A stretch of DNA of 64,000 bases from Deltaproteobacteria bacterium RIFCSPHIGHO2_02_FULL_44_16 (GTDB taxonomy: Bacteria > UBA10199 > 2-02-FULL-44-16), in assembly GCA_001798185.1 (NCBI GenBank), contig MGRM01000009.1:85745-149744 (forward strand). Reading direction: 5' to 3'. The notes below the pieces were generated by a model. It made no database searches. It was not told the DNA's origin and worked only from the letters and a program-made list of their open reading frames with translations. Each line of letters opens with the position of its first letter. Positions within the stretch are counted from its first letter, which is position 1. The translations under genes and the position numbers were made by a program. Shown here one piece after another: positions 24,255 to 62,940 of this stretch.

Positions 24255-24357
24255 GCCTAAACACCCTTCTTTTCGAACAATTTGCCTGCTAAAATAATAG
24301 TGGTAATAATAGATGTAATATGTGACATTTTTACTGAAGTCTGTGGAGGAAAGGCTC

Positions 24358-25269: not shown

Positions 25270-25280
25270 AAATATTAACT

Positions 25281-26318: not shown

Positions 26319-26411
26319 TACACATTAATAAGTGTAATAATAAGTGTAATGTATATAGGAATTTGTAGCGTTTTGTTTACGTTGTCTAAACCTCTCACTA
26401 CAGAATCATGA

Positions 26412-26440
26412 TTGAATTTTCGCCTGTAAAATTCTAGTAT
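26412..26440 (+). promoter_or_regulatory. Candidate sigma70-type promoter for the MTase operon (TTGAAT-17-TAGTAT)
   Basis: ttgaattttcgcctgtaaaattctagtat in an AT-rich spacer carrying 'ataagtgtaat' direct repeats, ~40 bp upstream of the MTase ATG. Confidence 0.3.
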
Positions 26441-26479
26441 TATGGCTCTCAAAATTTTGATTCGTGTAGACCTAAATCT

Positions 26480-28465
26480 ATGACTAAAGAAATTGAAAAA
26501 AACCAAACTTTGCCAACGCAAGAAAAGTTTTTTTCTACCGAGAAACTACGTCGGTCAGCGCGAGCGGGGACAAATCTACCTGACCCCACGATGGCACCCT
26601 ATGGGTATGATGCCAAACAGCACTACGGCCATCTCTTTCCCAAGTTGGAATTGCCGCGATTGTTTCCGCCGGCGTCGCATCATCCCGATGACCACGTTAG
26701 CTTTGGCTCGCCAAGTATGGAACCCCATCAGCTTTATCTGGGGGACAACCTCTATGTTCTGCGCCAGTTGCCCACTGAATCAATCGACCTGATTTACATC
26801 GACCCGCCCTTCTTTTCCAATCGGACCTACACCCAAATCTGGGGTGACGACAATGAAGTGCGTTCTTTCACCGATATTTTTCAGGATGGGATGTTTTCTT
26901 ATCTCGCTTGGCTGAATGCCCGATTGTGGGAAATGAAGCGGGTACTCAAGTCTACCGGTTCCATTTACGTTCATTGCGATTGGCATGCAGCTCATTACAT
27001 CAAGTGTGAACTCGATAAAATTTTCGGCTATGACAATCTTCGGAACGAGATTATCTGGTGTTACCAAAATGGCGGCAAAGGAAAGGAAAATTTTGCCCGC
27101 AAGCATGATATAATTTTTTGGTACTCAAAAACGCAACAATGGATTTTTAACGAAGCCGACGTTCATATACCCTATGAATTAATTTCGCCTAATTCTGTAA
27201 CGCCATTTAATCTGAAAGACGGACAAGGTAGACGCTATCGGGAGAGAATCTCAAATGGGAAGAAGTATGTCTACTATGAAGATAATGGGAAAATTCCCAA
27301 CGATTGGTGGTTAGATGTACAGCCGTTGACTGGGCGTCATGGGTGGGATGAGAGATTAGGGTATCCTACACAAAAACCGGAATCTTTACTTGAAAGAATC
27401 GTTAAGGCGTCTTCAACTTCCAACGGTATAGTCGCTGATTTTTTCATGGGTGGTGGCACAGCGGGATCTGTCGCTCTGAAATTGGATCGCCGTTTTATCG
27501 GCTGTGACATTTCTCGCGTTGCTGTCAGCGTTACCGCTAGCCGTTTAATTGATATCGCTGAAAATATTTCAGGCATAACAGTAACAAACAAAGCCCAGCC
27601 GACTCTACCAATGAAACAGGCAGACGTTGCCGATATTCGCGTGGGCTATGTGGGGAGCTACCCTCAAGATAAATTTCGCGGTATCTCCCATGAGGAATTT
27701 TCAAAATTCATCCGCACTGTATACCAGGCCATGCCCTTTACGGGTCAGGCTCAATGGATTCATGGCTTGGCCAACAACAAAATTATCCTTTCCATTGGCC
27801 CGGGCGACCCCAATGAACGGGTGACGCTTACACAAGTGGATGGCGCCGTCAAAGACACGGTCAAACAGTATTCTCGACAATTCGCCGAGGGAGAAGACAA
27901 AATTCTTCAGATTATCGGGTGGTCTTTTGATCCTCAGTGTGAAGGTTGGAAGCGCAAGGCGGCAGAAACCCTCAACAGCAAGGGAGTCAAGTTACAAATC
28001 GATCTGATTTCTTTGGGGAGCGAGAGTTTCCGTCAGAAAATTTTCCGCAACGTTGGTGAAAGCAATCTTGATCTCAAATTCAATCGTCTTAATCAACTCC
28101 TCTCATTCACCGGCGCGCCCTATGCCGGAAAAATCACTGTCACCAGTAGGAACAAGTTGACCGTCTCTTTTGCTTTGGAAGGGGCAAGGGCTATCGGTGC
28201 GGGCGCCAAGCTGATCAACTGTCAGTGGGATTTTTCCTATGACAACAACCGCTTTGCCAGTCGGGAACATGCTTTGAACCGGGACGGAAAGAATGGAGAT
28301 TTTATCGCTATCCTGACAACGGATCACACGTTTCCAAAGTCAGGAACGTACAGCATTGCGGCGAGGGTACAGGACAATCTCGACGGACAAGCCACAGTTG
28401 CCGCCCGAATCGAAGTGAGTGAAACCGATTGCAGGATTATTGAAGAGAAGATCGTGAATGTATGA
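26480..28465 (+). CDS. DNA methyltransferase (N6-adenine/N4-cytosine, beta-class, type III Mod-like / PF01555) with a ~300 aa C-terminal extension of unknown function
   Basis: Motif IV 'IYIDPPFFSN' precedes motif I 'DFFMGGGTAGSV' by ~220 aa (beta class), with 'SIYVHCDW…NEIIWCY' in between. 661 aa total. Confidence 0.8.
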   Translation: MTKEIEKNQTLPTQEKFFSTEKLRRSARAGTNLPDPTMAPYGYDAKQHYGHLFPKLELPRLFPPASHHPDDHVSFGSPSMEPHQLYLGDNLYVLRQLPTESIDLIYIDPPFFSNRTYTQIWGDDNEVRSFTDIFQDGMFSYLAWLNARLWEMKRVLKSTGSIYVHCDWHAAHYIKCELDKIFGYDNLRNEIIWCYQNGGKGKENFARKHDIIFWYSKTQQWIFNEADVHIPYELISPNSVTPFNLKDGQGRRYRERISNGKKYVYYEDNGKIPNDWWLDVQPLTGRHGWDERLGYPTQKPESLLERIVKASSTSNGIVADFFMGGGTAGSVALKLDRRFIGCDISRVAVSVTASRLIDIAENISGITVTNKAQPTLPMKQADVADIRVGYVGSYPQDKFRGISHEEFSKFIRTVYQAMPFTGQAQWIHGLANNKIILSIGPGDPNERVTLTQVDGAVKDTVKQYSRQFAEGEDKILQIIGWSFDPQCEGWKRKAAETLNSKGVKLQIDLISLGSESFRQKIFRNVGESNLDLKFNRLNQLLSFTGAPYAGKITVTSRNKLTVSFALEGARAIGAGAKLINCQWDFSYDNNRFASREHALNRDGKNGDFIAILTTDHTFPKSGTYSIAARVQDNLDGQATVAARIEVSETDCRIIEEKIVNV

Positions 28466-29556
28466 TGGTATCAAAAGGAAACAAAATGGAAGGACTCAAA
28501 CCTCAAGATTGGAAGGATTTACTAAGCGGGGTACGCAATCTTATTATTTCAGCCAGGCGAGCCGCCTCGCGAAGCATTGACACTCTTCAGGTGTTCACCA
28601 GCTTTGAGATCGGACGCCGTGTTGTCGAACATGAACAACTCGGAGAAAAGCGAGCCACTTATGGAAAACACGTGCTTACAAGACTTTCAGAGAGCCTAAC
28701 TCGTGAGTTCGGGCGCGGATTTTCAGAGGACAATCTCTCAAATATGCGGCGTTTTTATCTTGAATATCGGAAATGCTTGCCGAAGATTTCCGAGAAGCCT
28801 TCTCGGAAATCCATTTCCGCGCCAGGCCAGTCAATCTTATCGAATGTCAGCTCTGTTTTGAGCTGGTCCCATTACGTTTTTCTGATGACAATTTCAGACA
28901 AGGATGAACGACAATTCTATGAAATCGAATCTGCCCAAAACGGCTGGTCTCTGCCGGAACTCAAACGCCAGTTCAATTCCAGCCTTTATGAACGTCTGGC
29001 CTTAAGCCGGAACAAGAAAAAAGTCCTGGAGTTGGCCAAAAAGGGCCAATTGATAGAAACTTCCTCCGACCTGATCAAGCAACCCCTTGTGCTGGAATTT
29101 CTCGGCTTGGATGAAAAAAACAAATATGCGGAGTCGGATCTGGAATCCGCCATTATCGATAAACTGGAACATTTTCTGCTTGAGTTGGGCAAAGGCTTTC
29201 TTTTCGAAGCCCGGCAAAAACGTTTCACCTTTGACACCGATCACTTCTACGTTGACCTTGTATTTTATAATCGCCTTCTACGCTGCTACGTGCTCATCGA
29301 TCTCAAGATCGGCAAACTCACCCACCAAGATTTGGGACAGATGCAGATGTACGTCAATTATTTCGACCGCTTTGTAAAAAGGGATGGCGAACATCCCACC
29401 ATCGGCATCATTCTTTGCCGAACAAAAGGTAGTGCCTTGGTTGAAATCACGCTTCCTGAAAAAGCCAACATCTATGCGTCAGAATATAAACTCTACCTCC
29501 CATCGAAAAAAGATCTGAAAAGAAAACTTTTGGCATGGGCCGCAGAGGAAGAATAA
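28462..29556 (+). CDS. DUF1016 / YhcG-family PD-(D/E)xK nuclease-like protein (alternative start at 28486)
   Basis: YhcG-like N-terminal region plus a C-terminal '…FYVDLVFYNRLLRCYVLIDLKIGKL…' (D…[I]DLK) PD-(D/E)xK core. ATGA overlap with the MTase. Confidence 0.6.
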   Translation: MMVSKGNKMEGLKPQDWKDLLSGVRNLIISARRAASRSIDTLQVFTSFEIGRRVVEHEQLGEKRATYGKHVLTRLSESLTREFGRGFSEDNLSNMRRFYLEYRKCLPKISEKPSRKSISAPGQSILSNVSSVLSWSHYVFLMTISDKDERQFYEIESAQNGWSLPELKRQFNSSLYERLALSRNKKKVLELAKKGQLIETSSDLIKQPLVLEFLGLDEKNKYAESDLESAIIDKLEHFLLELGKGFLFEARQKRFTFDTDHFYVDLVFYNRLLRCYVLIDLKIGKLTHQDLGQMQMYVNYFDRFVKRDGEHPTIGIILCRTKGSALVEITLPEKANIYASEYKLYLPSKKDLKRKLLAWAAEEE

Positions 29557-29559
29557 TTC

Positions 29560-31695
29560 ATGATTACCGAAGAAGAATTACAATGGCGACTCTGGACGGA
29601 GACGCCCCAGTTCCCAAATCTGAATGACCATCAAAGACTGGTGGCTCAAAGGTTTTTCGAGCGCCTTAGCGGACAGGATTTCTTCAAACCACTTTATCGT
29701 CATCAATGGGAGGCGATTGCACGTGTTATTCATAATGGTGAAGTACGAGGAAAGTGGGAATGCCTTCTCGATATTGTAACCGGAGGCGGTAAGACCGTCA
29801 TCATGGCTGGTTTGATGTCGTACTTTTGGCAGGTTCGTAAGTGCGAAAAATTCCTGATTCTTGTTCCCAACACCATTGTTCGTGAACGGGTCAAAGACGA
29901 CTTTGAGTTTAATAATCCAGCTAATGCATTCAAAGAATTCCCTTTTTTCTTCAACTCTTGCTCCAGGGTACCTGAACGCCTTGTGTGTAAAGTCCTGCGG
30001 GATGGAAGCGACGCCTCCGGCATCCGTGACGCCCATGTGATTGTCGCAAACATCCATCAACTTTACGAAGGCAAGGGTTCTCCTGCCCTTGAAGTGCTCC
30101 TTGCAGACAAGGTTACACCCGAACTCGTGATTTTTAATGATGAGGCGCATAACGCAGCGGCGGGAGAATATCGGGAAGTGTTAAAACTTTTGCGTCGAAA
30201 AACCGTTGCCCGGATTGACCTGACTGCAACCCCTTACCGCCTCGACAAGCAGGACCTCGATACCTATCCGCCGCTGTATGAATACCATGTGCAGGAAGCC
30301 ATGCGCGATGGAGTGGTAAAACAGATCGTAGTGACCAGACCAGACATCCAGAGCGTCAAACTGCAATATGAAGAGTGGGACGAAAACAATCAGGTGATTC
30401 GCACGCTTGATGCCGAAGAAATGCCCTGGGAGCAGATCGAAAGTGAACTCAGGCGAAGCGGTGCCGTTCGTTTCGTCACGGCAGATAACGCCCGCAGACA
30501 ACAGCTTCAAATTGCAAAAAGCTGTTTGGATTATCAGAAAAAATGTGTCCCTCGCGGAGTGGATGATAAGCCACAATGGGAACCGTTGATGCTGACAGTT
30601 GCACTCTCCCAAAAAGATGCTTTTAAAATTTATGAAACCCTTCAGAAAAAACCATTTGGCTATAAACCAGAAGAATTATTGCTTGTTCACAGCAAACAAG
30701 AAGAACTGCAGAACAGGAAAGCATTTTTGCTTGGACGTAAAGGTCCAGAGGGTTTGAATAAAGAAGATGAAGAGTTATGGCATGAGACACGAAAAGTACG
30801 GGTCATCATTGCTGTTTCTATGTTGCGTGAAGGTTGGGATGTTAGAAATATTGCCATTATTTGCCTTTTTCGCAAATTCAGTTTTCAGAAAAAGGGGGAT
30901 CGGACTTATACAGTTTATGGCCCACAGATCATTGGTCGAGGCCTAAGACGAATCCGCCAGCCCAACGAACGGGATTTTCTGTTTGTCATCGATCATCCGG
31001 CTTTCAATCATGATTGGCTTTGGGAGATTCTTTCAGCTCACAAGTACGCCAAGCCACTGAATCCAGGCGACGCCGTGGAAGATTCTTGTATTGAAGACAT
31101 CCCTCTGGAAAAGCCGAAAATAGAGGAATCGGAGGAGGCCAATAAGGAAGACAAGAAACCGGAATTGGATGTTGAAGATATACTCAATAGTCTCCCTTCC
31201 ATTGATGGCAAGGGTGTTCATCCCATCGCCAATTGGCAAAAACATTTTCGAGAGTTTCCCCTAGCAAAAAAAATATCATCGGCCCTCCAAAGAATTACCA
31301 ATATAAAAAGTCAAAAGCTGGGGGGCGATACAACTGCGCATGTCTTGCCTGAAGAAGAGATTAATATTGAGGAACTCAATGAAAGTGTGGCCGGTCAATA
31401 CAAAGATAAAAAACGGGAAGACTTGATTCGGGAACTCCAAACAGACCTGCTCAACGAGCCTCATCATGCACTGATGCTTTGTTTCAAGATGGAGACCGCC
31501 GAGGAAACGCTTAAGTTGATGCAAGCGCTGGAATGGATTTTGACCGAACTTTTTGCCATTCAGGGGGTTAGTGGTTTGGGCGAATCTCCGGAGGCCCAAT
31601 TGCGTAAACTGCATTTTTCCTTACCCCAGATTTTGGATGAGTTTCGGAAGCCGGAAATCGTCTTGGGCATTCTTGGTGAGGGGTCTGAAAAATGA
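29560..31695 (+). CDS. SF2 DEAH-box helicase, type III restriction Res-subunit-like, lacking a recognisable C-terminal endonuclease domain
   Basis: Motif I 'DIVTGGGKTVIMAG', motif II 'VIFNDEAHNAAA', 'LTATPYR', motif VI 'QIIGRGLRR'. 711 aa. Begins 4 nt after the DUF1016 stop. Confidence 0.7.
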   Translation: MITEEELQWRLWTETPQFPNLNDHQRLVAQRFFERLSGQDFFKPLYRHQWEAIARVIHNGEVRGKWECLLDIVTGGGKTVIMAGLMSYFWQVRKCEKFLILVPNTIVRERVKDDFEFNNPANAFKEFPFFFNSCSRVPERLVCKVLRDGSDASGIRDAHVIVANIHQLYEGKGSPALEVLLADKVTPELVIFNDEAHNAAAGEYREVLKLLRRKTVARIDLTATPYRLDKQDLDTYPPLYEYHVQEAMRDGVVKQIVVTRPDIQSVKLQYEEWDENNQVIRTLDAEEMPWEQIESELRRSGAVRFVTADNARRQQLQIAKSCLDYQKKCVPRGVDDKPQWEPLMLTVALSQKDAFKIYETLQKKPFGYKPEELLLVHSKQEELQNRKAFLLGRKGPEGLNKEDEELWHETRKVRVIIAVSMLREGWDVRNIAIICLFRKFSFQKKGDRTYTVYGPQIIGRGLRRIRQPNERDFLFVIDHPAFNHDWLWEILSAHKYAKPLNPGDAVEDSCIEDIPLEKPKIEESEEANKEDKKPELDVEDILNSLPSIDGKGVHPIANWQKHFREFPLAKKISSALQRITNIKSQKLGGDTTAHVLPEEEINIEELNESVAGQYKDKKREDLIRELQTDLLNEPHHALMLCFKMETAEETLKLMQALEWILTELFAIQGVSGLGESPEAQLRKLHFSLPQILDEFRKPEIVLGILGEGSEK

Positions 31696-32138
31696 TTCAG
31701 TCGAAGAGAGGTATTCTTAAAGGACTCAAGAAAACTCCAAAAGGTGAATCTACTTATGACAGTCTTTTGGAGCGAGATTACATGTTTGAATTGGAAAATA
31801 TGGGTGGCGTGGTTTCATGGACCAAGGACCACGGGATCCGAATTCCCTACAAAATCTTCGGGATCATTTCACGCCACTACTTGCCGGACTTCCTTGTCAC
31901 CTATGCGGACGGGTCAAAGGAGATTCATGAAACCAAAGGTGCTGGCTTTCTCGCCTGGGTTTCCACGCACGCCAAACGGCATGCCGGTGATGCCTGGTGC
32001 CGCCAGCGCGGGATGGTTTACCGGTTTATTGAAAACTCCAAAGGGGCGCTGTTTGCGAAGAATAATAGCTTGTCTCAACTTGAGGGAAGTTCCTCCTTCA
32101 AGCAGAAAAAACAAGTCGGGTCATTTGAAGATTTGTGA
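31692..32138 (+). CDS. Small PD-(D/E)xK-type nuclease-like protein (148 aa), translationally coupled to the helicase
   Basis: 'YLPDFLVTYADGSKEIHETKG' is a D…ExK core. ATGA overlap with the helicase stop. Confidence 0.4.
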   Translation: MIQSKRGILKGLKKTPKGESTYDSLLERDYMFELENMGGVVSWTKDHGIRIPYKIFGIISRHYLPDFLVTYADGSKEIHETKGAGFLAWVSTHAKRHAGDAWCRQRGMVYRFIENSKGALFAKNNSLSQLEGSSSFKQKKQVGSFEDL

Positions 32139-32276
32139 ATGTGACTAGAAATGCGGGCATGGAAATTATTTGAACAATTATTTTACTCCACCTAACGCGT
32201 CTTTCGGGGGGAGTCGTAATAGAAACCGCGCTCCGCCCCAACTCTTTATATTCACCTTCTTTACACCATTGTTAAA

Positions 32277-32711
32277 TTGTTTAAAATTATTATTGCAATA
32301 TCTGTAAGAATGGCTTACTCGTCACAAATGGCCACCAAAGGTGAAAAGAAAAGTGAGTTTCTGAGACACAAGAAAGAGATCGAAGAGACTTACAACCGTA
32401 AACTTGAAGCCCTGTATGAGCTTTATCCTGAGTTCAAAAATACCACATCTTCAATCAATGGCGGCAGTGTTAGCACAAGCTCTTATGGCAGCCTTAAAAA
32501 GGTTTTACATCAAGCCATAGATAGGCGCGAGGGTGAGTTTACTTCGCGTGATCTAAAAAAATGGATCTCCGAGATTGATGCATCTGTGGGGGCGGCGATG
32601 ACACCTGCATCAGTTTCAAATGCGTTGGCGCGACTGAAGAAGGAGCAAAAAATAGAGCAAATTAAAAAGGGAGCAGGATCATCACCATCGATTTTTAAAA
32701 AGAAAAATTAA
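32277..32711 (+). CDS. Hypothetical protein (start uncertain)
   Basis: 144 aa ORF upstream of the HNH gene. Lys/Glu-rich; no recognisable motif. Confidence 0.3.
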   Translation: MFKIIIAISVRMAYSSQMATKGEKKSEFLRHKKEIEETYNRKLEALYELYPEFKNTTSSINGGSVSTSSYGSLKKVLHQAIDRREGEFTSRDLKKWISEIDASVGAAMTPASVSNALARLKKEQKIEQIKKGAGSSPSIFKKKN

Positions 32712-32862
32712 AGGCCAACCGCGCTAACGATTGGCCCTTAAATAGGGGACAGGAAAACCCGTCCACTTGTTCAATGCAAGTACACTTGTAGCGGTTCCCC
32801 TCCATTAAATCAAGAGCCCTTTCGTTTTCCTGTGGGTTCAATTTAAATAGGGAGGTTCTGAA

Positions 32863-33123
32863 ATGAACTTAACTCAAGAACAGCTTAAACAAATTTGGTT
32901 TAAAGCTAAAAACGCAGGTGCAGAAAACGACCGGAATGGCTTTCGTAAAGACAAATACGGAGCTTGGATAAAATGGTCTGACTACGGCAACAGAAACAGT
33001 CAATATGGATGGGAAGTTGACCACATTATTGCCACCGCAAATGGTGGGTCTGACACTATGAGCAATCTTTGCCCACTGCATTGGAAAAACAACGCATCCA
33101 AAAGCGGCAGCAGATTCTTATAG
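32863..33123 (+). CDS. Small HNH endonuclease
   Basis: 'YGWEVDHIIATANGGSDTMSNLCPLHWKNNASK' H-N-H core. GGGAGG RBS 6 nt upstream. Confidence 0.65.
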   Translation: MNLTQEQLKQIWFKAKNAGAENDRNGFRKDKYGAWIKWSDYGNRNSQYGWEVDHIIATANGGSDTMSNLCPLHWKNNASKSGSRFL

Positions 33124-33237
33124 CTTGAATGTTAATGGCCTTCAGAATAAAACGACGGTAGCTTGCAATGCCGTCGTTTTTATTTTGCAAGCAAACTGCT
33201 TGGGCGCCAGATATCAAGGATATTCCCTAGAGTGAGC

Positions 33238-33336
33238 ATGATGAAACACTACATCACCGCCACTGACCTCTATAATTTCAAAAAATGCGCTTATTGGCCG
33301 TACATGGATGGCAATACGTTGATAAAAGCACTTTAA
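33238..33336 (+). pseudogene. Orphan duplicated 5' fragment of the TM0106-type nuclease gene (encodes MMKHYITATDLYNFKKCAYWPYMDGNTLIKAL*)
   Basis: Its first ~23 codons are ~85% identical at the DNA level to 34580-34650, the N-terminus of the downstream nuclease ORF. It terminates after 32 codons. Confidence 0.4.
33244..33315 (+). repeat. Direct repeat DR-L (~70 bp) flanking the DUF4143 ATPase gene
   Basis: aaacactacatcaccgccactgacctctataatttcaaaaaatgcgcttattggccgtacatggatggcaat, matching 34580-34652. Confidence 0.55.
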
Positions 33337-33426
33337 AATCAATTGGTTATAAATAAATAAGCTCTGCGAAATATATGATGTTTTCAGCAACACCATTGCG
33401 TATTTTTTAACTTCTGTTAGGCTCTC

Positions 33427-34581
33427 ATGATGGTGGATTACACACGTATTCTTGACCTTCAAACTCCTCTCAAACGGAAAAGCCTTTTTCTTTTTGGGCC
33501 TCGCCAGACGGGGAAAACCTTTTATCTCAAGAAAACTTTTCCCAATATCCCTTTTTATAATTTGCTTGAGTCGAAAACATTTCTTCGGCTGAGTCAGCGC
33601 CCTCATTTACTCCGAGAAGAATTGATGGCAACTGCATCCGCGAATCCGCTGATTATTATAGATGAAATACAAAAACTTCCTCTTTTGCTTGATGAAGTTC
33701 ATTCATTGATTGAGGAAAAGAAAATGAAGTTTATTTTAACGGGGAGCAGCGCGCGGAAGTTAAAAAGAGGTGGAGCCAATCTTTTGGGAGGTCGGGCAAC
33801 AACGCTTCACCTCTATCCATTAGTTTCCGCTGAAATTCCCAATTTTGATTTGATCCGAGCTTTAAATTGGGGAACACTTCCTTCTCTTTACCCCTCTGAC
33901 GACCCGGAAAACGATCTTCATGATTATGTCGGAAATTATCTCAAAGAAGAAATCCAGGCGGAGGGGTTGGCGCGAAACATCGGAAATTTCTCTCGTTTTC
34001 TCCAAACAGCATCACTCTGCAACGCGGAACAAACTCATTTTACAAATATTGGAAACGATGCCCAAATATCGCCTCGCACTGTAGCGGAATATTTCTCCAT
34101 CTTGGAAGACACACTCATCGGATACATTTTAGAGCCCTATACAAAGACGAAAAAACGAAAGGCAGTTTCTACCGCGAAATTCTATTTTTTTGATTGCGGC
34201 GTTTGCAACGTTTTGGCCGGACGAAGAAACATCAGTCCAAAAACAGAACTGTTCGGAAAGTCGTTTGAGCAATTTATTTTTACAGAATTGAAAGCCTATC
34301 TTTCCTATAAGCGGGATTCCCGGCCGCTTACTTTTTGGAAATCCCAAATATCAGATTACGAAGTTGATTTTTTGATCGGAGATGAAATTGCCATTGAAGT
34401 AAAAGGTTCTGAATTGATTACAGAACGCCATTTAACGGGTATTAAGGCTCTTAAAGAAGAGTTGAAATTGAAAAAGAACATTATTGTTTCCATGGATGAA
34501 AAACCTCGAAAATTGGACGGCATTGATATTTTCCCCGTTTCTCATTTCCTTGAAATGTTATGGAGCGGAGAAATTGTCTAA
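33427..34581 (+). CDS. AAA+ ATPase, AAA_14 / DUF4143 family
   Basis: Walker A 'LFGPRQTGKTFYL', Walker B 'LIIIDEIQK', and a DUF4143-like C-terminal region. Confidence 0.7.
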   Translation: MMVDYTRILDLQTPLKRKSLFLFGPRQTGKTFYLKKTFPNIPFYNLLESKTFLRLSQRPHLLREELMATASANPLIIIDEIQKLPLLLDEVHSLIEEKKMKFILTGSSARKLKRGGANLLGGRATTLHLYPLVSAEIPNFDLIRALNWGTLPSLYPSDDPENDLHDYVGNYLKEEIQAEGLARNIGNFSRFLQTASLCNAEQTHFTNIGNDAQISPRTVAEYFSILEDTLIGYILEPYTKTKKRKAVSTAKFYFFDCGVCNVLAGRRNISPKTELFGKSFEQFIFTELKAYLSYKRDSRPLTFWKSQISDYEVDFLIGDEIAIEVKGSELITERHLTGIKALKEELKLKKNIIVSMDEKPRKLDGIDIFPVSHFLEMLWSGEIV

Positions 34582-36088
34582 ACACTACATCACCGCCACT
34601 GATCTCTATAATTTCAAGAAGTGCGCCTATCGACCATTTATGGATTTCAATGGGGATCTATCGTTGAAAGTCGACGTGCATCCGCTCGTGAAACTGCTGT
34701 GGGAATCGGGAGTGCAATATGAAGCAAAGGTCATTGAATCGTATCAGCGAGATCATTCCGAAAAATCGTTTCGTGCAATCGATCCTGAGAAGCCGGCATC
34801 CGAAGCTTTGGCCAAGGAAACGCTCAAAGCAATGCAAGATGGGATTGATATCATTTATCAAGGTGTTTTGATTTCAGGAAATAAACTCGGTCGTCCTGAT
34901 CTGCTTCTGAAAACACCGGGATCTTCGTCGCTCGGCGCGCATCATTATTATCCGATGGATATTAAACTCACTCGCATTGATGCGACATGGGATGATGGCA
35001 ATGAAAAGGTTCCCATAGAACAATTCTGGCAAATCTATTTTTATGGTGAACTTTTAGAGCACGTTCAAGGCAAGCGACCAGAGAAAGGTTATATCTATAA
35101 GACCAAGTCGCGCATTCTTCCGATTCCTCTTTATAAAGCTCCCAAGAATTACGAATGGTCAGTGAATCAATTAGAAAATTATCTTCAGGGAAATGCGTTC
35201 GGAGCAGAGCCAACGATCAACAGCAATTGCGGCTTATGCGACTGGAAAGATTCATGTCGAAGTTGGGCCGATGAAAAACAGGATATTTCACTCGTCTATT
35301 ATGTTGGTCAGGCAATGAAACTCGGACTCAATCAACTCGGCATTCGTTCGATCGAAGATCTTGCGGCGCAAGATCCAGACTATTTGACGAGAAAAGTTAT
35401 AGAACTGAAAAACCAAGGATTCTTTTGGAATGCAATGCCCGCCGATCTCCCTGCAAAATCTGTTGTGCGCGCGAAGATTCACCTGAGCAAAAAACCGGTC
35501 ATCCATAACCCCATCACTTTTCCTGATGCTGAAAAAGAGATTCATTACGATATCGAAGATGACCCAACACAGGATTTTGTCTATTTGCACGGCGCCTTGC
35601 TTATCGAGAAAGGGAAAGAGCCAAAGTATTACGCCTTCTTTGCAGAACATCGCGATGAGGAACGCACCATCACCGAACACCTGTTTGATTTTTTCAATCA
35701 GCACCCGGATGCGACTGTGTATCACTACAGTGATTACGAAAAGACAACGCTTAAGCGACTCATCAGTAAGCATCAACTCGATTCGACATCGTATGAACGA
35801 TTGTTCGGTAAAAATGGAACAGCAATCGATCTTTATAAAATTGTCACCGAGAATACTGACTGGCCGCTGACAAGCTATGGCGTCAAGGCGATCTGCAAGT
35901 TTTTGGGATTTCAGTGGGATGCCAGTGATGCTGGTGGCGCCGCATCGATTGTCTGGATGAATGAATATTTAAGCGGACATACAAGCATGAAAGAGAAAAT
36001 ACTCCGATATAATGAAGACGATTGTCGGGCGACCTCTTTTCTCAAAAACGAACTCATCAAAATGCAAAATCACACGAACGATGTGTAG
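34484..36088 (+). CDS. RecB-family nuclease, TM0106-like (Cas4/RecB-like N-terminal domain with Cys cluster, RNase-H-like C-terminal domain). Start ambiguous.
   Basis: Conserved N-terminal 'HYITATDLYNFKKCAYRPFMD'; Cys cluster 'CGLCDWKDSC'; C-terminal 'HYDIEDDP…VYLHG' RNase H-like. No ATG immediately precedes the conserved N-terminus, so the only in-frame ATG (34484) overlaps the ATPase gene. Confidence 0.5.
   Translation: MFPWMKNLENWTALIFSPFLISLKCYGAEKLSKHYITATDLYNFKKCAYRPFMDFNGDLSLKVDVHPLVKLLWESGVQYEAKVIESYQRDHSEKSFRAIDPEKPASEALAKETLKAMQDGIDIIYQGVLISGNKLGRPDLLLKTPGSSSLGAHHYYPMDIKLTRIDATWDDGNEKVPIEQFWQIYFYGELLEHVQGKRPEKGYIYKTKSRILPIPLYKAPKNYEWSVNQLENYLQGNAFGAEPTINSNCGLCDWKDSCRSWADEKQDISLVYYVGQAMKLGLNQLGIRSIEDLAAQDPDYLTRKVIELKNQGFFWNAMPADLPAKSVVRAKIHLSKKPVIHNPITFPDAEKEIHYDIEDDPTQDFVYLHGALLIEKGKEPKYYAFFAEHRDEERTITEHLFDFFNQHPDATVYHYSDYEKTTLKRLISKHQLDSTSYERLFGKNGTAIDLYKIVTENTDWPLTSYGVKAICKFLGFQWDASDAGGAASIVWMNEYLSGHTSMKEKILRYNEDDCRATSFLKNELIKMQNHTNDV
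34580..34652 (+). repeat. Direct repeat DR-R (~70 bp), coinciding with the conserved N-terminal coding region of the nuclease gene
   Basis: aaacactacatcaccgccactgatctctataatttcaagaagtgcgcctatcgaccatttatggatttcaatgggg. Confidence 0.55.
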
Positions 36089-39827: not shown

Positions 39828-39974
39828 GACCAAACTGATTCACATTTTCTCTCGGGGCACGGACGCTTCGGTTGCGCTCCTCGCGTCCTCTCTTTCAGTC
39901 GGCGCGATTTATCACATCGCATCGACGCGCCTCCCTCAAAGGTCCCCTGCGAGAAAATCTTCACCAGTTTGGTC
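39828..39974 (+). mobile_element. MITE family 2 (~147 bp, terminal inverted repeats GACCAAACTG…CAGTTTGGTC), copy 1
   Basis: gaccaaactgattcacattttctctcggggcacggacgcttcgg…cccctgcgagaaaatcttcaccagtttggtc, immediately after the feoB stop. Confidence 0.7.
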
Positions 39975-40886: not shown

Positions 40887-42236
40887 GTGAAGAAAACCAA
40901 CTATCTCCTCACATCCTTTCTTTTTTTTTCGCTTCTTTTTTCTTCTTTTCCTGCAGCAGCAGCGAAAAACGGTGATGTCATCAACCTTTTCCCGACCAAT
41001 GATAGCGGGCTCTTTTTAAGTATCTATGACAGTCATACCTTTGGTTGGAGAAGTTTTTCCATCAGAACCGTTTGGAATTATGCACCACGTACGCTTGAAC
41101 TCAACAATACATCAGGTCGACGTGTACGAGGTGTGATCGATGATCTGCTCATCACGGATATTGGGGGGGCCATTGGGATTCTCCCCTGGTGGCATATCGG
41201 TTTTAATCAACCTGTCATCCTCTGGCAAACCTATCAAGATCCTTCTCTTCTCACGACAACTGCGCCAAAAGAGAATCGATTTGGGAAACTCGGTGATCCT
41301 CGTCTCGATATGAAATTTCGCTTGCTGGAAAATTATAGAACTCCTCTTGGAATTGCCATCATCCCCTTTGTGTATCTCCCTTATGGTGATGAAGAACATT
41401 TTTTAGGAAATGGAATGTGGTCTCCAGGCGCCACGTTAGCGCTCGACACTTCTTTGAGAAAGCGACTCTTTTTTGCTTTCAACATTACCTATCGAAATTA
41501 CGAAAAATTTCAGTATCGAACTGGCGCCAATTCTTTTATCGATGACACGCTCGGTTTCGGCCTGGGATTCCGTATTCAGATGAGCGAAAAACTCGCACTT
41601 TTAAGCGAACTTTGGGGTGAAAGCGTCATCAGTTCATTTGCAAAAAACAGTTTGCAGAACCCATCGGAATTTTTAGCAGGATTACGCTATGAACCTTCTC
41701 GCAAAAAATCACATCTGGGAATGACGCTCGCTGGCGGAAGATCCATCGTTTCAGGTCTTGGATCTCCTGAATACAGAGTCACCGCTGGCATTGATTATCT
41801 TCACTATGCCAGCGCAAAGAAAGAAAAACAAAAAGAGGCGGAGAAAGAGAAAAAGGAGAAGAGAAGAGAAGAGAAAAAAATAATAGAATTTAAGATTGAT
41901 CAGAAGATTCATTTTTCTTTCGCAAGCGCTTATATCAAAGAAGTCTGGAATCCGGTACTTGAAGAAGTGGCAACATTTCTTCTGAAACATCCTCGACTCA
42001 ATAAAATGATCGTCGAAGGATACACTGATGTACTGGGACCTCAAAAGTACAATCAGCGACTCTCTGAAGAACGAGCGAAAGCAGTGCGGGATGCTCTTAT
42101 TGCACGTGGGGTTGAACCAGATCGTCTTGAAGTTATTGGCTTTGGATCGAGCCAACCTCTCGCTGACAATGCGACCGCAGCAGGAAGAGCGCTCAATCGG
42201 CGTGTTGAATTTTCTCTTCCGGTGCAGCAACCATAG
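40887..42236 (+). CDS. OmpA-family outer membrane protein (N-terminal beta-barrel, K/E-rich linker, C-terminal OmpA domain)
   Basis: Signal peptide; C-terminal 'VEGYTDVLGPQKYNQRLSEERAKAV…NRRVEF' peptidoglycan-binding OmpA domain. GTG start. Confidence 0.7.
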   Translation: MKKTNYLLTSFLFFSLLFSSFPAAAAKNGDVINLFPTNDSGLFLSIYDSHTFGWRSFSIRTVWNYAPRTLELNNTSGRRVRGVIDDLLITDIGGAIGILPWWHIGFNQPVILWQTYQDPSLLTTTAPKENRFGKLGDPRLDMKFRLLENYRTPLGIAIIPFVYLPYGDEEHFLGNGMWSPGATLALDTSLRKRLFFAFNITYRNYEKFQYRTGANSFIDDTLGFGLGFRIQMSEKLALLSELWGESVISSFAKNSLQNPSEFLAGLRYEPSRKKSHLGMTLAGGRSIVSGLGSPEYRVTAGIDYLHYASAKKEKQKEAEKEKKEKRREEKKIIEFKIDQKIHFSFASAYIKEVWNPVLEEVATFLLKHPRLNKMIVEGYTDVLGPQKYNQRLSEERAKAVRDALIARGVEPDRLEVIGFGSSQPLADNATAAGRALNRRVEFSLPVQQP

Positions 42237-42299
42237 TCATCCCCGCGAAAGCAGGGATCTCATGTTTTGACTCGAGATTTCCGCTTTCGCGGGAATGAC
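42236..42299. repeat. Hairpin-pair palindromic repeat element (family 1), copy D, between the convergent OmpA and giant-protein genes
   Basis: gtcatccccgcgaaagcagggatctcatgttttgactcgagatttccgctttcgcgggaatgac followed by TTTTT. Probably acts as a bidirectional terminator. Confidence 0.6.
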
Positions 42300-45200
42300 T
42301 TTTTGATACCCACAAGCAGTATGAGGAAGAAAAGAAGCATCTGCTTCGAAGAAGCTTTAGTTGAAAGCGAACATCCTCCGCCACCATCAAAGGAGAACTC
42401 ATCTCCTGGGTTGGTGTTAATAGAACCATAAAGGTCCACTTTATAAACACTACTCGTCGATTTCGTCGTAAAGATTTCATCAATTCCATCTGAATTTGTA
42501 TCTCTGAGGAAGATACCTGCAAAACATCGATCGCCACTCGACTCACACGGAACTTGGATAATTCCCTTTTCATCATTGACATTCATCGTACTGCTCCACG
42601 TCGTTCCTCCCGGGATGACATAGAGAATTCCAGTATCATTATTATGTGTTGGAGCGCCGATCAGCAGATCAATATAGCCGTCACCTGTCACATCTTTAAA
42701 TGCCAGACTTTGACCAAATCCGTCACTGGCGCTTCCATTACTGATCACCACAGCAGCATCGTCTTCAGAATAGACCGTGCCATCAACGAGAGGACCATTG
42801 ATAATGTAAACAGCTCCGTTCGTTGTTGCCAAAGCAACGTCTTGATTGCCGTCAGCGTTATAATCTCCAACTGCTGTCGTTTGAATATTTGCATCGGGAC
42901 TGAGCGATGCATCGACACCAGTGCTTGAAAGCTGGACTTCTCCGGTTAAACTCGACGCTTCATTCAACGCAAAACTCTTGGAGACGGCTACTTTCACCGT
43001 AAGCGTGCTTCCCACTTGAAGATTTTTCTTAATGCCTGGATTATCCGGACCAACGAGAAAAGCATTGTTGGTCTTGGTAAAAAGATTTTGGACGACGAGA
43101 GAATAAATAGGATTATTGCTGCTTCCAAAAATGAGGCCCGTAAGCACATAGTTCTGGTTGTAGAGATAGATACAACCATTAAATCCGCAACCGGGCGCCG
43201 CAATCGCAATATCAATTTCTCCATCACCGTTGATATCGCCTGTCCCGAGATAGGAAGCAAAACCATCACTTTCATTGCGTTCAAGAATCAAGAAGGGGTC
43301 AGAGCTTGACGCTGAGAGCACTGCTGGCAGCAAATCACTCTCAAATTTGGAAGATGCTTTTGAAACAGACTTTGAAACTGCAAGATCAGCAAGCTCGCTC
43401 AAATCAATCGTCCTTGGAAGATTAGCTAACGTTCCTGTGCTCTCTGTTGCGAGGAAAACCTGCGATCTTCCACTCGGGAATTGAATACCGACCATCATTC
43501 TTCCGGTACTGGTTTCATCAATTGTATAACTTGAATATCCTGAGGGAAGTGTCAGCGTCAGGAATCCGATTTCAAGAAAATGAGCTTCACTTCCTCTTAT
43601 TTGCGTGCGGCGTTCATAGACCGTATATCCTCCAACAGATCCAACCACCATGAGGTTACTCTGGGTCTCTGTTTGAATGCTGACCGCTTCGAGATAACGA
43701 TTCACTGTCACAACCGCATCGTCAGTTGCTGAGGTACTGCCATCAGTCACCGTGAGGCGTAAGGTAAGTGATCGACTGCGAGCGCTTTGTGAAACCGAAA
43801 GCGTTGATGAAGCGGAAGTCGCGCTTCCAAGCGATGCAACTCCGTCAGTATTTCCGCTGATGATCGTCCATGAATAACTGATACTTGAACCTGTTCCACT
43901 TCCACTTAACGTAATCGATTCGCCTGCATTCATGCGTCGATCACTTCCGGCACTCGCTGAAACAAGTGTTGATTCTGTATCGTTATCGGTGATCGTTCCG
44001 GTTCCCTGACTGTCGTTGATCGTGGCATTGGCATTCACGTTGCTCAAGTTGATGACAAAGGTCTCATCGCTTTCGGTCGTGCTATCGTCAGTTGTCGAAA
44101 CGGAAACCGTCTTGCTCGTTTCCAGTGCAGCGAATGTCAGCGTTCCACTATTTGCAGTGTAATCAGAACTTGTTGTGGCAGTTCCATTGGCAGTGGCATA
44201 GTCAACCGTAATTGTTTGCGTGCTGGCACGATTCAACAACACCGTAAATTGAAGAGTGTTGCCCTCTGTTGCAGAGACATCATCGATGGTGATTCTCGGC
44301 TTAGGTCCAGATGTATCATTATTCGTTAATGTGCCAGTCCCCTGGCTATCGCTGATCGTGGCATTGGCATTCACGTTGCTCAAGTTGACGACAAAGGTCT
44401 CATCAATTTCATTGAGACTATCATCAGCTGTCGTTACAGAGATCGTCTTACTGGTTTCCAACGCTGCAAACGTCACTGTTCCACTGGTCGCAGTGTAATC
44501 GGAACTGGAGGAGGCTGTCTCGTTCGCGGTGGCATAGTCAACCGTAATCGTTTGAATGCTGGCATGATTCAATGACACAGTAAATTGAAAGGTATTCCCC
44601 TCTGTTGCAGAAACATTGTCGATGCTGATCGTCGGAATTGAACCACTATCCGTGATCGTACCAGTTCCCTGACTGTCGCTGATCGTGGCATTGGCATTCA
44701 CGTTGCTCAAGTTGATGACAAAGGTCTCATCGCCTTCGGTCGTGCTGTCGCTGGCGGTGGAAACATCGACCGTCTTCGTGGTCTGCCCTGCTGTGAATGT
44801 CAATGTCCCGCTTGTCGCAGTGTAATCAGAATCTGCAGTCGTCGCTGTCCCATTGGCGGTGGCATAGTCGACGGTGATCGTCTGAGAACTTGCGTTGCTC
44901 AACGAGACCGTAAATTGAATACTACTCCCCTCCACCGCAGAAACATCGTTGACGCTGATGCCTGGAGTACTATCGTCATCGGTAATCGTCACCGTATGTA
45001 GGGTCGGACTAATCGCAACAGCATTGGTGGGAGTTCCCATTGTCAGAATGACGGTTTCATCACTCTCATCGATCGTATCTGCTGTTACGGTAAAAGTTGT
45101 AGTCCCGGTAGAAACATTATCCGCACTCAAAATTGTAATATTGCCATCGGCGAGATTATGGTCTGTTCCGCTCGCCGTTGCACTTCCACTGACCGTGAAC

Positions 45201-48600: not shown

Positions 48601-48622
48601 GAAAGCTCCGCTAAAAACTATG

Positions 48623-56179: not shown

Positions 56180-56215
56180 CATCGTCAATAGTCCATGGTC
56201 AATGGTCGATTGTTT

Positions 56216-62849: not shown

Positions 62850-62940
62850 GCGAAAGCACTACTATCTTTTTGCTTCATGATTGCAAGCCTTGAATCATGA
62901 TGTTAGAATCCACCTCACAAATGTCTTTTGATCATTTGTT

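What the first reader, a model, noticed from the sequence alone, without database searches (positions are those of the whole stretch)
33238..34652. DUF4143 AAA ATPase gene bracketed by ~70 bp direct repeats that duplicate the 5' end of the neighbouring TM0106-type nuclease gene
Sequence 33244-33315 is ~85% identical to 34580-34652. The first copy carries a proper ATG and encodes MMKHYITATDLYNFKKCAY…, then terminates after 32 codons. The second copy is the in-frame conserved N-terminus (KHYITATDLYNFKKCAYRPF) of the 534 aa nuclease. That copy has no ATG of its own, so the nuclease can start only at an upstream ATG (34484) overlapping the ATPase gene, or at a non-canonical start. The 1.3 kb between the repeats is exactly the ATPase gene. 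This looks like an insertion or recombination event that delivered the ATPase into the 5' end of the nuclease gene. Either it left a decoy gene start, or it marks a site-specific insertion mechanism that targets this conserved nuclease N-terminal coding sequence.
Basis: seen in the sequence. Interest (0 to 1): 0.6.

Follow-up and report, generated by a model that had tools for sequence, protein, structure and literature searches.

The report
Defence gene inserted with long target duplication
A self-contained 1.26 kb candidate phage-defence gene (PDC-S01 ATPase-nuclease) was inserted into the start of a RecB-like nuclease gene and duplicated 72 bases of it, a little-understood insertion mode so far described for restriction-modification genes.

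Summary
The repeat is real: 33244-33315 and 34580-34651 match at 61 of 72 bases without gaps (BLAST E 5e-17). Nothing else in the window resembles it.

The DNA between the copies (33316-34579) is a discrete cassette, made of about 110 nt of promoter region plus an AAA_14/DUF4143 ATPase-nuclease (PADLOC candidate PDC-S01). The same cassette occurs at 72-92% nucleotide identity in five unrelated loci, and homology always stops at the ATPase stop codon.

Nuclease homologues (71-75% aa) start with ATG directly before K-x-x-ITATDLYNFKKC and have no ATPase upstream. So this is an insertion, not an ancestral gene pair.

The left copy is the orphaned native start, a 32-codon ORF. The working nuclease most likely starts at TTG 34574, behind a GGAG inside the ATPase's last codons.

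The cassette is not specific for the nuclease. Two other cassettes carry unique flanking duplications of other targets: 49 nt of a dnaJ-like gene start and 37 nt of an epimerase gene end.

This fits "insertion with long target duplication" (Nobusato 2000; Furuta 2010), known for restriction-modification genes, whose mechanism is unsolved.

A 91.5%-identical cassette in an apparently unrelated bacterium still carries a nuclease-5' remnant on its left side.

Verdict: a new member of a known kind, of moderate interest.

The parts
33149..33180 (+). Terminator-like hairpin ending the upstream HNH gene (32863-33123). It marks the end of the previous transcription unit, so the native nuclease promoter and start region begin after it.
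   Evidence: The terminator scan finds a 12-pair stem followed by a T-run. No terminator-like site is found on the + strand between here and the nuclease gene.
33238..33336 (+). Orphaned native start of the nuclease gene. ATGATG plus repeat copy 1 reads as a 32-codon ORF (MMKHYITATDLYNFKKCAYWPYMDGNTLIKAL*).
   Evidence: tblastn of the nuclease against the window hits 33238-33315 at 81% over 26 aa. Copy 1 carries three non-synonymous changes against the family consensus (R->W, F->Y, Y/F->G), as expected for a decaying fragment.
33244..33315 (+). Left copy of the 72-nt direct repeat (duplicated target).
   Evidence: Of the 11 differences from the right copy, 7 are at third codon positions. The first 23 nt are identical.
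33316..33426 (+). Upstream part of the inserted cassette, a conserved promoter/operator-like region (TTTTCAGCA..TTGCGtAT..TAGGCT) that travels with the ATPase gene.
   Evidence: It aligns with the region upstream of the ATPase in L013, L014, L018, L082 and L083. Homology to L018 starts at 33365 and to L014 at 33381. Weaker similarity to L013, L014 and L082 reaches about 33319.
33427..34581 (+). PDC-S01-type ATPase-nuclease gene (384 aa), with an AAA+ domain, a helical middle part and a C-terminal PD-(D/E)xK domain.
   Evidence: Pfam gives AAA_14 at 1.5e-22 and DUF4143 at 6.5e-28. PADLOC gives PDC-S01 at 4e-45. Invariant residues are GPRxTGK (24-30), D79 E80, and E312 D314 E324 K326. The AlphaFold model has pLDDT 87.5 and pTM 0.90, and Foldseek matches it only to generic AAA+ proteins such as RuvB, RFC and Orc1/Cdc6.
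34562..34576 (+). Shine-Dalgarno-like GGAGCGGAG followed by TTG 34574, the probable present start of the nuclease. It lies inside the last codons of the ATPase, with an 8-nt overlap in the +1 frame.
   Evidence: Read from the sequence. The 504-aa gene call P0001 in ENA/Logan is 100% identical. NCBI calls a 482-aa product from Met23, which would lack the conserved N-terminal Cys.
34580..34651 (+). Right copy of the 72-nt direct repeat, the functional N-terminal coding sequence of the nuclease (KHYITATDLYNFKKCAYRPFMDFN).
   Evidence: It begins on the last two bases of the ATPase stop codon. Cassette homology to L014 and L018 ends at the ATPase stop codon, 34581-34582.
34574..36088 (+). TM0106-family RecB-like nuclease gene, with an N-terminal Cas4-like PD-(D/E)xK domain and a C-terminal RNase_H_2 domain.
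   Evidence: TIGR03491 at 298.5 bits. PF13482 at 3.5e-31. Weak Cas4 hits in PADLOC. The cysteine pattern is C17 plus C-x2-C-x5-C at about 219-228, and the N-terminal Cys is present in 22 of 23 homologues.

Best explanation
A self-contained single-gene cassette was inserted into the first 26 codons of a resident TM0106-family nuclease gene. The cassette is about 110 nt of its own promoter region plus a PDC-S01-type AAA+ ATPase / PD-(D/E)xK nuclease ORF, 33316-34579.

The insertion duplicated at least 72 nt of the target. This is the pattern called "insertion with long target duplication".

The left copy kept the native ATGATG start, and probably the native promoter, but now ends after 32 codons. 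It has been decaying as a pseudo-start. The right copy stayed joined to the gene and has changed only at synonymous or conservative sites.

The duplication began after the start codons, so the working gene lost its ATG. It is now most likely translated from TTG 34574, behind a GGAG that lies in the ATPase's last codons, by translational coupling.

Shown:
- the repeat;
- the cassette boundaries;
- uninterrupted homologues of the nuclease;
- horizontal spread of the cassette;
- two further cassettes with unique flanking duplications of other targets.

Inferred:
- that the two copies were identical at birth;
- that a staggered double-strand break or a replicative template switch made the duplication;
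- which start codon is used.

The enzyme responsible is unknown.
For: 1. The repeat is real and unique in the window.

2. The cassette is discrete.
- L018 shares 91.5% nt over window 33365-34581 and nothing outside it.
- L013, L014, L082 and L083 share 72-76% nt, from 46-55 nt upstream of the start (L014, L082, L083) or from within the ORF (L013) to within 0-18 nt of the stop codon, with weaker similarity further upstream.
- Sequence after the stop codon is unrelated in all 15 loci compared.
- The neighbouring genes differ in every locus group; L014 and L083/L084 share a downstream hemerythrin.

3. Five nuclease homologues (71-75% aa) start with ATG directly before the conserved N-terminus. 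They have other defence-type genes upstream, not this ATPase.

4. The same architecture occurs with other targets.
- In L082, 49 nt (42/49 identical) spanning the ATG and the first 13 codons of a dnaJ-like gene is repeated on both sides of the cassette. The left copy is a 20-codon stub placed after efp.
- In L021, 37 nt (33/37 identical) spanning the stop codon of an epimerase gene is repeated on both sides.
- Both repeats are unique within their loci.
- The control rate is 3 of 196 pseudo-inserts scoring 40 or more.

5. The substitution pattern fits one free and one constrained copy. Against the family consensus, copy 2 has about 5-6 synonymous or conservative changes, and copy 1 has about 6, four of them at first or second codon positions in the three non-synonymous codons.

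6. The pattern matches published cases. [quoted passage not shown]

7. No integrase or transposase lies in the insert. The island ORFs examined upstream (24322-33123) also gave no such Pfam hit.
Against: - No orthologous empty site was found: no contig of the same species joins the HNH gene directly to an intact nuclease. The duplication is therefore inferred from homologues in other contexts.
- None of the three duplications is perfect (85-89% identity), so no recent event was caught.
- The 11 mismatches in the window are clustered, with none in the first 23 nt (P about 0.01 by my calculation). Simple decay does not predict this.
- Copy 1 is slightly closer to the 5' end of a distant homologue (L009, 64/72) than to copy 2 (61/72).
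- Most cassette loci, about 11 of 14 independent loci with at least 57% aa identity to the window's ATPase (all but one at least 64%), show no flanking duplication.
- The L018 cassette carries a nuclease-like remnant on its left flank in a locus without a nuclease. This shows the left copy can move with the cassette.
Confidence: 0.68

Rival explanations
1. Campbell-type (insertion-duplication) integration. A circular or one-ended DNA carrying the cassette plus a short piece of a foreign nuclease 5' end recombined with the resident nuclease gene through a short identical stretch. The two copies were therefore different from the start, one half element-borne and one half resident. This resembles integrative elements that carry a replacement end for the gene they enter.
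For: - The L018 cassette (91.5% nt) sits in an apparently unrelated bacterium and locus, yet carries a 41-nt nuclease-5' remnant immediately upstream. Its score is 43 against 18.7 +/- 2.1 for shuffles, with 0 of 200 shuffles reaching it.
- That remnant shares with copy 1 a T where every real nuclease has the C of an Arg codon.
- The repeat has a 23-nt block of perfect identity followed by 22% divergence. From my own knowledge, a block of this length is what homologous recombination between diverged sequences needs.
- Copy 1 is 64/72 identical to the L009 homologue and 61/72 identical to copy 2.
- All three duplications seen are imperfect.
Against: - It needs a donor in which the cassette already lay next to a nuclease gene, so it does not explain the first event.
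- The identical first 23 nt include lineage-specific codons (K-H-Y; the homologues have KKY, KPH or KKV). This argues that both copies come from the same gene lineage.
- The non-synonymous changes are all in copy 1, as simple decay predicts.
- The L018 remnant is closer to the family consensus (L011, 35/41) than to copy 1.
- L082 and L021 would each need their own donor with the same adjacency.
Confidence: 0.2
2. Site-specific targeting. The cassette, or a recombinase acting on it, recognises the conserved nuclease N-terminal coding sequence as an attachment site.
For: - Two cassette copies (the window and L018) are associated with nuclease 5' sequence.
- The first 24 codons of the nuclease family are somewhat more conserved at third positions (0.60) than most of the gene (typically about 0.36-0.52).
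- The gene array immediately upstream of the nuclease differs in every relative.
Against: - No nuclease gene lies within 3-4 kb of any of the roughly 70 other ATPase loci. That was tested by tblastn for 43 of them and read from the gene tables for L082-L085.
- Cassettes of the same subfamily sit in at least five other contexts.
- The other two duplicated targets (dnaJ 5' end, epimerase 3' end) share no motif with the nuclease sequence that I could see.
- There is no integrase in the insert or among the island ORFs examined upstream.
- There is no conserved sequence after the cassette's stop codon.
Confidence: 0.06
3. No insertion. The ATPase and nuclease are an ancestral overlapping gene pair, and the upstream 72 nt is an unrelated or artefactual similarity, for example an assembly chimera.
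For: The two genes overlap by 8 nt like a normal operon pair. All eight contigs with this nuclease have the ATPase upstream.
Against: - Homologues of the nuclease lack the ATPase, and homologues of the ATPase lack the nuclease.
- The repeat has E 5e-17 and lies in frame with a start codon.
- The structure is reproduced in independent assemblies and in a strain variant that is 98.7-98.9% identical.
Confidence: 0.02

Closest known systems
Insertion with long target duplication (Nobusato et al. 2000, Gene 259:99; Furuta, Abe and Kobayashi 2010, NAR, PMC2853133)
   Same: - A short insert of nuclease-type defence genes without any integrase or transposase.
- Flanking direct repeats longer than 30 bp, made from unique target sequence.
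- Repeats that span a translation start or stop, so the neighbouring gene survives.
- Repeat lengths that vary between events (here 72, 49 and 37 nt; published cases run from 46 to about 420 bp).
- Single genes, a solitary mcrA and orphan methylases, are among the published cases.
   Different: - The cargo here is not a restriction-modification gene. It is a PDC-S01 ATPase-nuclease with its own conserved promoter.
- The published cases were proven with empty-site genomes of the same species and mostly have repeats of 93% identity or more. Here no empty site is available and the repeats are 85-89% identical, so the events look older.
- In the window the duplication starts after the start codon, so the gene had to adopt a TTG start supplied by the insert.
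PDC-S01, a PADLOC phage-defence candidate (AAA_14 + DUF4143; COG1373)
   Same: The domain architecture and profile hits match. The family is described as ATPase domains fused to a PD-(D/E)xK nuclease, as the fourth most common defence candidate in prokaryotes, and as having undergone multiple horizontal transfers (PMC12988326). DUF4143 is listed as a PD-(D/E)XK family (PMC3424549).
   Different: [quoted passage not shown] Nothing I found describes discrete cassette ends, a co-transferred promoter or flanking target duplications for this family (literature searches).
Integrative elements that carry a replacement end for the gene they enter, such as tRNA-targeting islands or e14/phage 21 in icd (from my own knowledge)
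   Same: Imperfect direct repeats made of a gene end flank the element. One copy keeps the gene working and the other is a displaced fragment.
   Different: Those elements use a site-specific integrase and always enter the same gene. Here there is no recombinase gene, and three different targets are used.
Insertion sequences with unusually long target duplications: IS1630, 19-26 bp (cited in PMC2853133); IS1634 and IS1549, tens to hundreds of bp (from my own knowledge)
   Same: Long direct duplications of the target, of variable length.
   Different: Those elements have a transposase and terminal inverted repeats. The cassette has neither.

Membership tests
Insertion with long target duplication (Nobusato 2000; Furuta 2010) | The insert is flanked by direct repeats longer than 30 bp. 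| tested here: met
   72 nt at 61/72 identity, abutting both cassette ends. Also 49 nt in L082 and 37 nt in L021.
Insertion with long target duplication (Nobusato 2000; Furuta 2010) | The repeat corresponds to a single-copy sequence at an empty site in a related genome. | tested here: inconclusive
   No orthologous empty site was found, because every contig of this species carries the insert. Homologous nuclease genes at 71-75% aa identity have one uninterrupted 5' end, but they lie in other genomic contexts.
Insertion with long target duplication (Nobusato 2000; Furuta 2010) | The repeat is unique, not a dispersed repeat element. | tested here: met
   There are only two copies in the 64 kb. 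The L082 and L021 repeats are unique in their loci. By contrast, the flanking repeats of L038 and L060 proved to be dispersed hairpin elements, and L044 is rich in the same kind of repeat (L044 by a control hit), so all three were discarded.
Insertion with long target duplication (Nobusato 2000; Furuta 2010) | No integrase, transposase or other mobile element is associated with the insert. | tested here: met
   The insert holds one ORF, with AAA_14 and DUF4143 as the top Pfam hits and only other ATPase families below them. The island ORFs examined upstream (24322-33123) gave no integrase or transposase family. The 148-aa TnsA-like ORF matches the C-terminal part of a BPTD_3080-type restriction enzyme.
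Insertion with long target duplication (Nobusato 2000; Furuta 2010) | The cargo is a restriction-modification gene or gene set. | tested here: not met
   The cargo is a PDC-S01 ATPase / PD-(D/E)xK nuclease with no methylase. It therefore works like that class but extends it to a new cargo.
PDC-S01 / AAA_14 + DUF4143 ATPase-nuclease | An N-terminal AAA_14 P-loop ATPase followed by a C-terminal DUF4143 (PD-(D/E)xK) domain. | tested here: met
   PF13173 at 80.5 bits and PF13635 at 97.9 bits, both above cut-off. Seven PDC-S01 profiles match, the best at 4e-45. Walker A, Walker B and E312/D314/E324/K326 are invariant in 39 sequences.
PDC-S01 / AAA_14 + DUF4143 ATPase-nuclease | Anti-phage defence activity. 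| not testable with these tools
   This is a candidate based on genomic embedding only. [quoted passage not shown]
TM0106-family RecB-like nuclease (TIGR03491) | A profile score above the curated cut-off over the full length. | tested here: met
   298.5 bits against 97.45, covering residues 6-492 of 504. The RNase_H_2 domain scores 3.5e-31.
TM0106-family RecB-like nuclease (TIGR03491) | A Cas4/AddB-type four-cysteine pattern, with one N-terminal Cys plus C-x2-C-x5-C. Its role as an Fe-S cluster ligand set is from general knowledge. | tested here: met
   C17 in FKKCAY and CGLCDWKDSC are present. The N-terminal Cys is conserved in 22 of 23 homologues. It lies inside the duplicated segment, so a start at Met23, as in the NCBI call, would remove it.
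Insertion sequence or transposon | A transposase gene and terminal inverted repeats. | tested here: not met
   No transposase family is hit. Inverted-repeat searches of the window, L018 and L082 found none at the cassette ends in the window or L018, and in L082 only a 9-nt near-terminal pair that I noted by eye. The fold search gives only generic AAA+ matches, none to transposition ATPases.
Site-specific integrative element (att-type) | A recombinase gene and re-use of the same target sequence in independent insertions. | tested here: not met
   There is no recombinase in the insert. The duplicated targets differ and share no motif that I could see: nuclease 5' end, dnaJ-like 5' end and epimerase 3' end. 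The L018 remnant is the only hint of re-use.
Integron gene cassette | An attC site after the ORF, a promoterless ORF, and a nearby integron integrase. | tested here: not met
   Nothing is conserved after the stop codon in 15 loci. The cassette carries its own conserved promoter-like region. No integrase was seen.

The most novel reading that the evidence does not exclude
PDC-S01 cassettes may not be passive cargo. They could be autonomous selfish elements whose own AAA+ ATPase / PD-(D/E)xK nuclease makes widely staggered breaks, or promotes recombination, that insert the 1.26 kb unit with a 37-72 nt target duplication. The flanking repeats would then allow excision as a circle and re-entry into new genomes, carrying a piece of the old target along, as seen in L018. 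If so, one of the most abundant 'defence candidates' in prokaryotes would be, at least in part, a new kind of mobile element. It would also supply the missing enzyme for 'insertion with long target duplication'.
Probability: 0.1. Interest if true: 0.8.

Novelty: new member of a known kind. Interest (0 to 1): 0.45.

Why it matters
How solitary defence genes move between genomes without any recombinase of their own is still unclear. "Insertion with long target duplication" was described for restriction-modification genes between 2000 and 2010. As far as the literature I searched shows, it has no experimentally established mechanism.

This locus, with two sister cases, shows the same footprint for a different nuclease-bearing defence candidate, and a very common one. 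That cassette has sharply defined ends and a promoter that travels with it. One copy was evidently transferred into an apparently unrelated bacterium from the same aquifer site.

This makes the question testable on a compact 1.26 kb unit.

On the practical side, the case shows how such an insertion misleads annotation. Three different starts (482, 504 and 534 aa) are on record or possible for the nuclease. One of them removes a conserved cysteine, and a 32-codon decoy start remains upstream.

Tried and rejected
- **Terminal inverted repeats, attC-like or dif-like sites at the cassette ends.** The repeat searches found no inverted repeats at the ends, and nothing is conserved after the stop codon. 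attC-like and dif-like sites were only looked for by eye. L082 has one 9-nt inverted match near its ends that has no counterpart in the window.
- **Nuclease genes or remnants next to other ATPase loci.** tblastn found no nuclease in the 43 loci tested. Only L018 has a significant 5' remnant. L014 is marginal (7 of 200 shuffles), and L013, L082 and L083 have nothing.
- **Flanking repeats in L038, L044 and L060.** They looked like further cases (z = 14-48). L038 and L060 proved to be dispersed hairpin or terminator-type repeats present several times per locus, and L044 gave a strong control hit elsewhere in the locus. All three were discarded.
- **Polarising the 11 differences with homologues, to decide between decay and a foreign origin of copy 1.** Both models fit.
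- **Extending the repeat beyond 33315.** A shared CGTTGA after a 9-nt gap is too weak to count.
- **Viral contigs and plasmids.** No cassette relative in viral contigs, and plasmid hits are at most 41% aa identical, so they were no help.
- **Rfam scan of 32800-34800.** Nothing relevant.
- **PDB sequence searches.** No solved relative of either protein.
- **Fold search of the ATPase model.** Only generic AAA+ matches such as RuvB, RFC, Orc1/Cdc6 and STAND proteins, and no transposition ATPase.

Full report
**1. The observation**

The repeat is real. Positions 33244-33315 and 34580-34651 are 72 nt long and ungapped, with 61 of 72 bases identical. blastn within the window gives E 5e-17. A flank-versus-flank alignment scores 89, z about 36 against shuffles. 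The window holds no third copy.

The left copy follows ATGATG at 33238 and reads MMKHYITATDLYNFKKCAYWPYMDGNTLIKAL, stopping at 33334-33336. The right copy is the in-frame N-terminus of a TM0106-family RecB-like nuclease (TIGR03491, 298.5 bits against a cut-off of 97.45). The gene between the copies is AAA_14 + DUF4143 and matches the PADLOC defence candidate PDC-S01 at 4e-45.

Three details in the finding need correcting:
- 34484 is TTG, and the first in-frame ATG is at 34496.
- A better start is TTG 34574, preceded by GGAGCGGAG at 34562-34570. The ENA/Logan gene calls use it (504 aa, 100% identical). NCBI aa from Met23.
- The insert is the ATPase ORF plus 111 nt of its own upstream DNA.

The structure is not an assembly artefact. 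It is identical or nearly identical in independent assemblies (L001-L003) and present in a strain variant that is 98.7-98.9% identical (L012).

**2. It is an insertion**

Five nuclease homologues at 71-75% aa identity (L008, L009, L011, L015, L017) begin ATG-K-K/P-[YHV]-ITATDLYNFKKC. None has this ATPase upstream. Each has a different set of defence-type genes there, including Fic, type I and type III restriction-modification genes, OLD-family nucleases and HNH.

Conversely, the closest ATPase genes lie in unrelated places:
- L018 (93% aa, 91.5% nt) lies beside a convergent LysM/SLT gene and ftsZ.
- L013 and L014 (81-83% aa) lie beside a tricorn-like protease gene and a hemerythrin gene.
- L082, L083 and L085 lie beside a dnaJ-like gene, a hemerythrin gene and an aminotransferase gene.

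DNA homology among these copies runs from up to about 110 nt upstream of the ATPase start and ends within a few bases of the stop codon (L014, L018, L082) or within the last 18 nt of the ORF (L013, L083). The upstream part holds a conserved promoter/operator-like block. Nothing after the stop codon is conserved in the 15 loci compared. More distant cassettes (64-68% aa) from Planctomycetes and Omnitrophota keep their own conserved TTGACA..TCAGCA..ATGCTATATAT block.

The unit is therefore promoter plus ORF, about 1.26 kb. In the window the two repeat copies abut exactly its two ends.

**3. The organism and horizontal transfer**

The window's SucA is 100% identical to OGQ22930.1, from a Rifle-aquifer MAG named Deltaproteobacteria bacterium RIFCSPHIGHO2_02_F.... 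The next SucA outside that cluster is only 60% identical. L018 comes from a different Rifle MAG (RIFCSPHIGHO2_01_FULL_43_49). That MAG has no member in the SucA cluster.

The two cassettes differ at only 22.5% of fourfold-degenerate sites, and 73 of their 95 differences are at third codon positions. On this evidence the cassette moved between apparently distant bacteria living at the same site.

The window's cassette sits at the downstream end of a defence island of about 12 kb. The island lies between sucAB-lpdA and dtxR-feoAB and holds a Fic gene, an N6/N4 methylase, a DUF1016 gene, a ResIII helicase with a TnsA-like endonuclease, and an HNH gene.

**4. The cassette is not specific for the nuclease, but the footprint recurs**

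I compared 400 nt upstream with 400 nt downstream of the ATPase in about 62 loci. Apart from the window, two loci have unique duplications that abut the cassette:

| Locus | ATPase identity | Repeat | What is duplicated |
|---|---|---|---|
| L082 | 83% aa | 49 nt, 42/49 identical | the ATG and first 13 codons of a dnaJ-like gene; the left copy is a 20-codon stub after efp, the right copy heads the intact 307-aa gene |
| L021 | 67% aa | 37 nt, 33/37 identical | the last codons and stop codon of an epimerase gene; the repeat reappears 13 nt after the ATPase stop |

Both repeats are unique in their loci. Three further hits (L038, L044, L060) involve dispersed hairpin repeats and were discarded. 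In a control, 3 of 196 pseudo-inserts reached a score of 40. Against that rate, 3 of about 14 independent cassette loci with at least 57% aa identity to the window's ATPase (all but one at least 64%) gives P about 1e-3 by my binomial estimate. The three duplicated sequences share no motif that I could see.

**5. A remnant that travels**

Immediately upstream of the L018 cassette lies a 41-nt sequence, AAATGTGCCACTGCTGGCCGTTTATGGATTACGATGGGAAT. It matches nuclease 5' ends (35/41 to L011; score 43 against 18.7 +/- 2.1 for shuffles, with 0 of 200 reaching it). No nuclease gene is nearby. Like copy 1, it has T where all real nucleases have the C of an Arg codon.

Either a piece of the left repeat was carried along when the cassette moved, or the L018 lineage once sat in a nuclease gene too. 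In both cases the link between this cassette lineage and a nuclease 5' fragment predates the 22% neutral divergence. The window's insertion is therefore old and stably inherited.

**6. Reading the substitutions**

Seven of the 11 differences are at third codon positions. Against the consensus of five homologues, copy 2 carries about 5-6 changes, all synonymous or conservative. Copy 1 carries about 6, four of them at first or second codon positions in its three non-synonymous codons (R->W, F->Y, Y/F->G). This is what one constrained copy and one free copy of a duplication would show.

Two features are not explained by simple decay:
- The first 23 nt have no mismatch at all (P about 0.01).
- Copy 1 is marginally closer to L009 (64/72) than to copy 2 (61/72).

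These keep a Campbell-type rival alive, in which one copy arrived with the cassette.

**7. How it most likely works now**

No terminator-like site lies between the HNH terminator (33149-33180) and the nuclease on the + strand. Transcription from the native nuclease promoter probably still runs through the 32-codon stub and the cassette, joined by the cassette's own promoter. This step is inferred.

The nuclease N-terminus carries the first cysteine of a C...C-x2-C-x5-C pattern that is conserved in 22 of 23 homologues. A start at Met23 would therefore be defective. TTG 34574, with its GGAG eight bases upstream, gives MSKHYITATD..., which has nearly the ancestral length. In L013 the cassette end likewise supplies GGAGG before a TAATG overlap with the next gene.

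**8. What is known**

The footprint matches "insertion with long target duplication". It was described for restriction-modification genes in H. pylori and later in many bacteria. Its features are duplications longer than 30 bp and of variable length, no mobility genes, repeats that often span a start or stop codon, and single genes such as mcrA among the cargo. The authors suspected a role for double-strand breakage and proposed a virus-like cycle through the repeats (PMC2853133).

PDC-S01 is reported as the fourth most common defence candidate in prokaryotes, with multiple horizontal transfers, and validation is pending for most such candidates (PMC12988326). DUF4143 is a PD-(D/E)XK family (PMC3424549). 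I found no report that links the two.

The ATPase model (pLDDT 87.5) resembles generic AAA+ proteins only. Neither protein has a solved relative detectable by sequence.

**9. Verdict**

It is a new member of a known but poorly understood class, and interest is moderate. The main weaknesses are the lack of an empty-site allele, only three cases, and the age of the events.

Noticed in passing
window 39828-39974, 48617-48769, 54074-54217, 56035-56185: A dispersed repeat of about 147 nt in four copies, 84-95% identical, in both orientations. The first copy starts 5 nt after feoB. It looks like a MITE- or REP-type element.
   Followed up: no
window 5051-5122, 7018-7084, 42236-42300, 62939-63011: A repeat of about 65-70 nt in four copies, 75-83% identical. 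The copy at 42235-42300 matches its own reverse complement.
   Followed up: no
window 43976-44959: An internal tandem repetition with a period of about 335 nt and 75-77% identity, presumably a repetitive protein gene.
   Followed up: no
window 29560-32138: The 711-aa ResIII helicase and the overlapping 148-aa TnsA-like endonuclease ORF match different parts of one NCBIfam model, the BPTD_3080-family restriction endonuclease (profile positions 570-619 and 858-940 of 970). This looks like a split or two-gene version of that enzyme.
   Followed up: partly
L012 versus window 33001-34860: The strain variant differs at 21 positions. Twenty are inside the ATPase gene, 16 of them within 34224-34452, while the flanks are identical. 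Half of the variant bases equal those of the L018 cassette. Four short contigs (L004-L007) break at 34047-34413. This means either recombination among cassette alleles in the community or chimeric assembly of co-occurring cassettes.
   Followed up: partly
window 34574-36088 (public annotation): NCBI records the nuclease as a 482-aa hypothetical protein (OGQ22813.1, OGQ45928.1). ENA/Logan aa, and the longest ORF is 534 aa. The 482-aa version lacks the conserved N-terminal cysteine.
   Followed up: yes
L008, L009, L011, L015, L017: TM0106 nuclease homologues (71-75% aa) each sit co-directionally just downstream of a variable defence-type gene array (Fic, type I or III restriction-modification genes, OLD, HNH, DUF4357), often with DUF6933 or DUF1016 nearby. 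L008 has a large serine recombinase 2.5 kb downstream. The 5' side of this gene behaves like a hot spot for defence-gene turnover.
   Followed up: partly
L019-L022, L024, L060, L061 (about 100 nt upstream of the ATPase start): PDC-S01 genes from Planctomycetes and Omnitrophota share a conserved upstream block, TTGACAaTCAGCA..ATGCTATATATCATGATAAnCAGCA. It looks like a promoter with palindromic operator-like half-sites that has been kept across phyla, which suggests a regulator site that travels with the gene.
   Followed up: no
L013 7145-7152: In another locus the cassette end supplies GGAGG and a TAATG stop/start overlap to a downstream tricorn-like protease gene. This is the same kind of translational coupling as in the window.
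   Followed up: no
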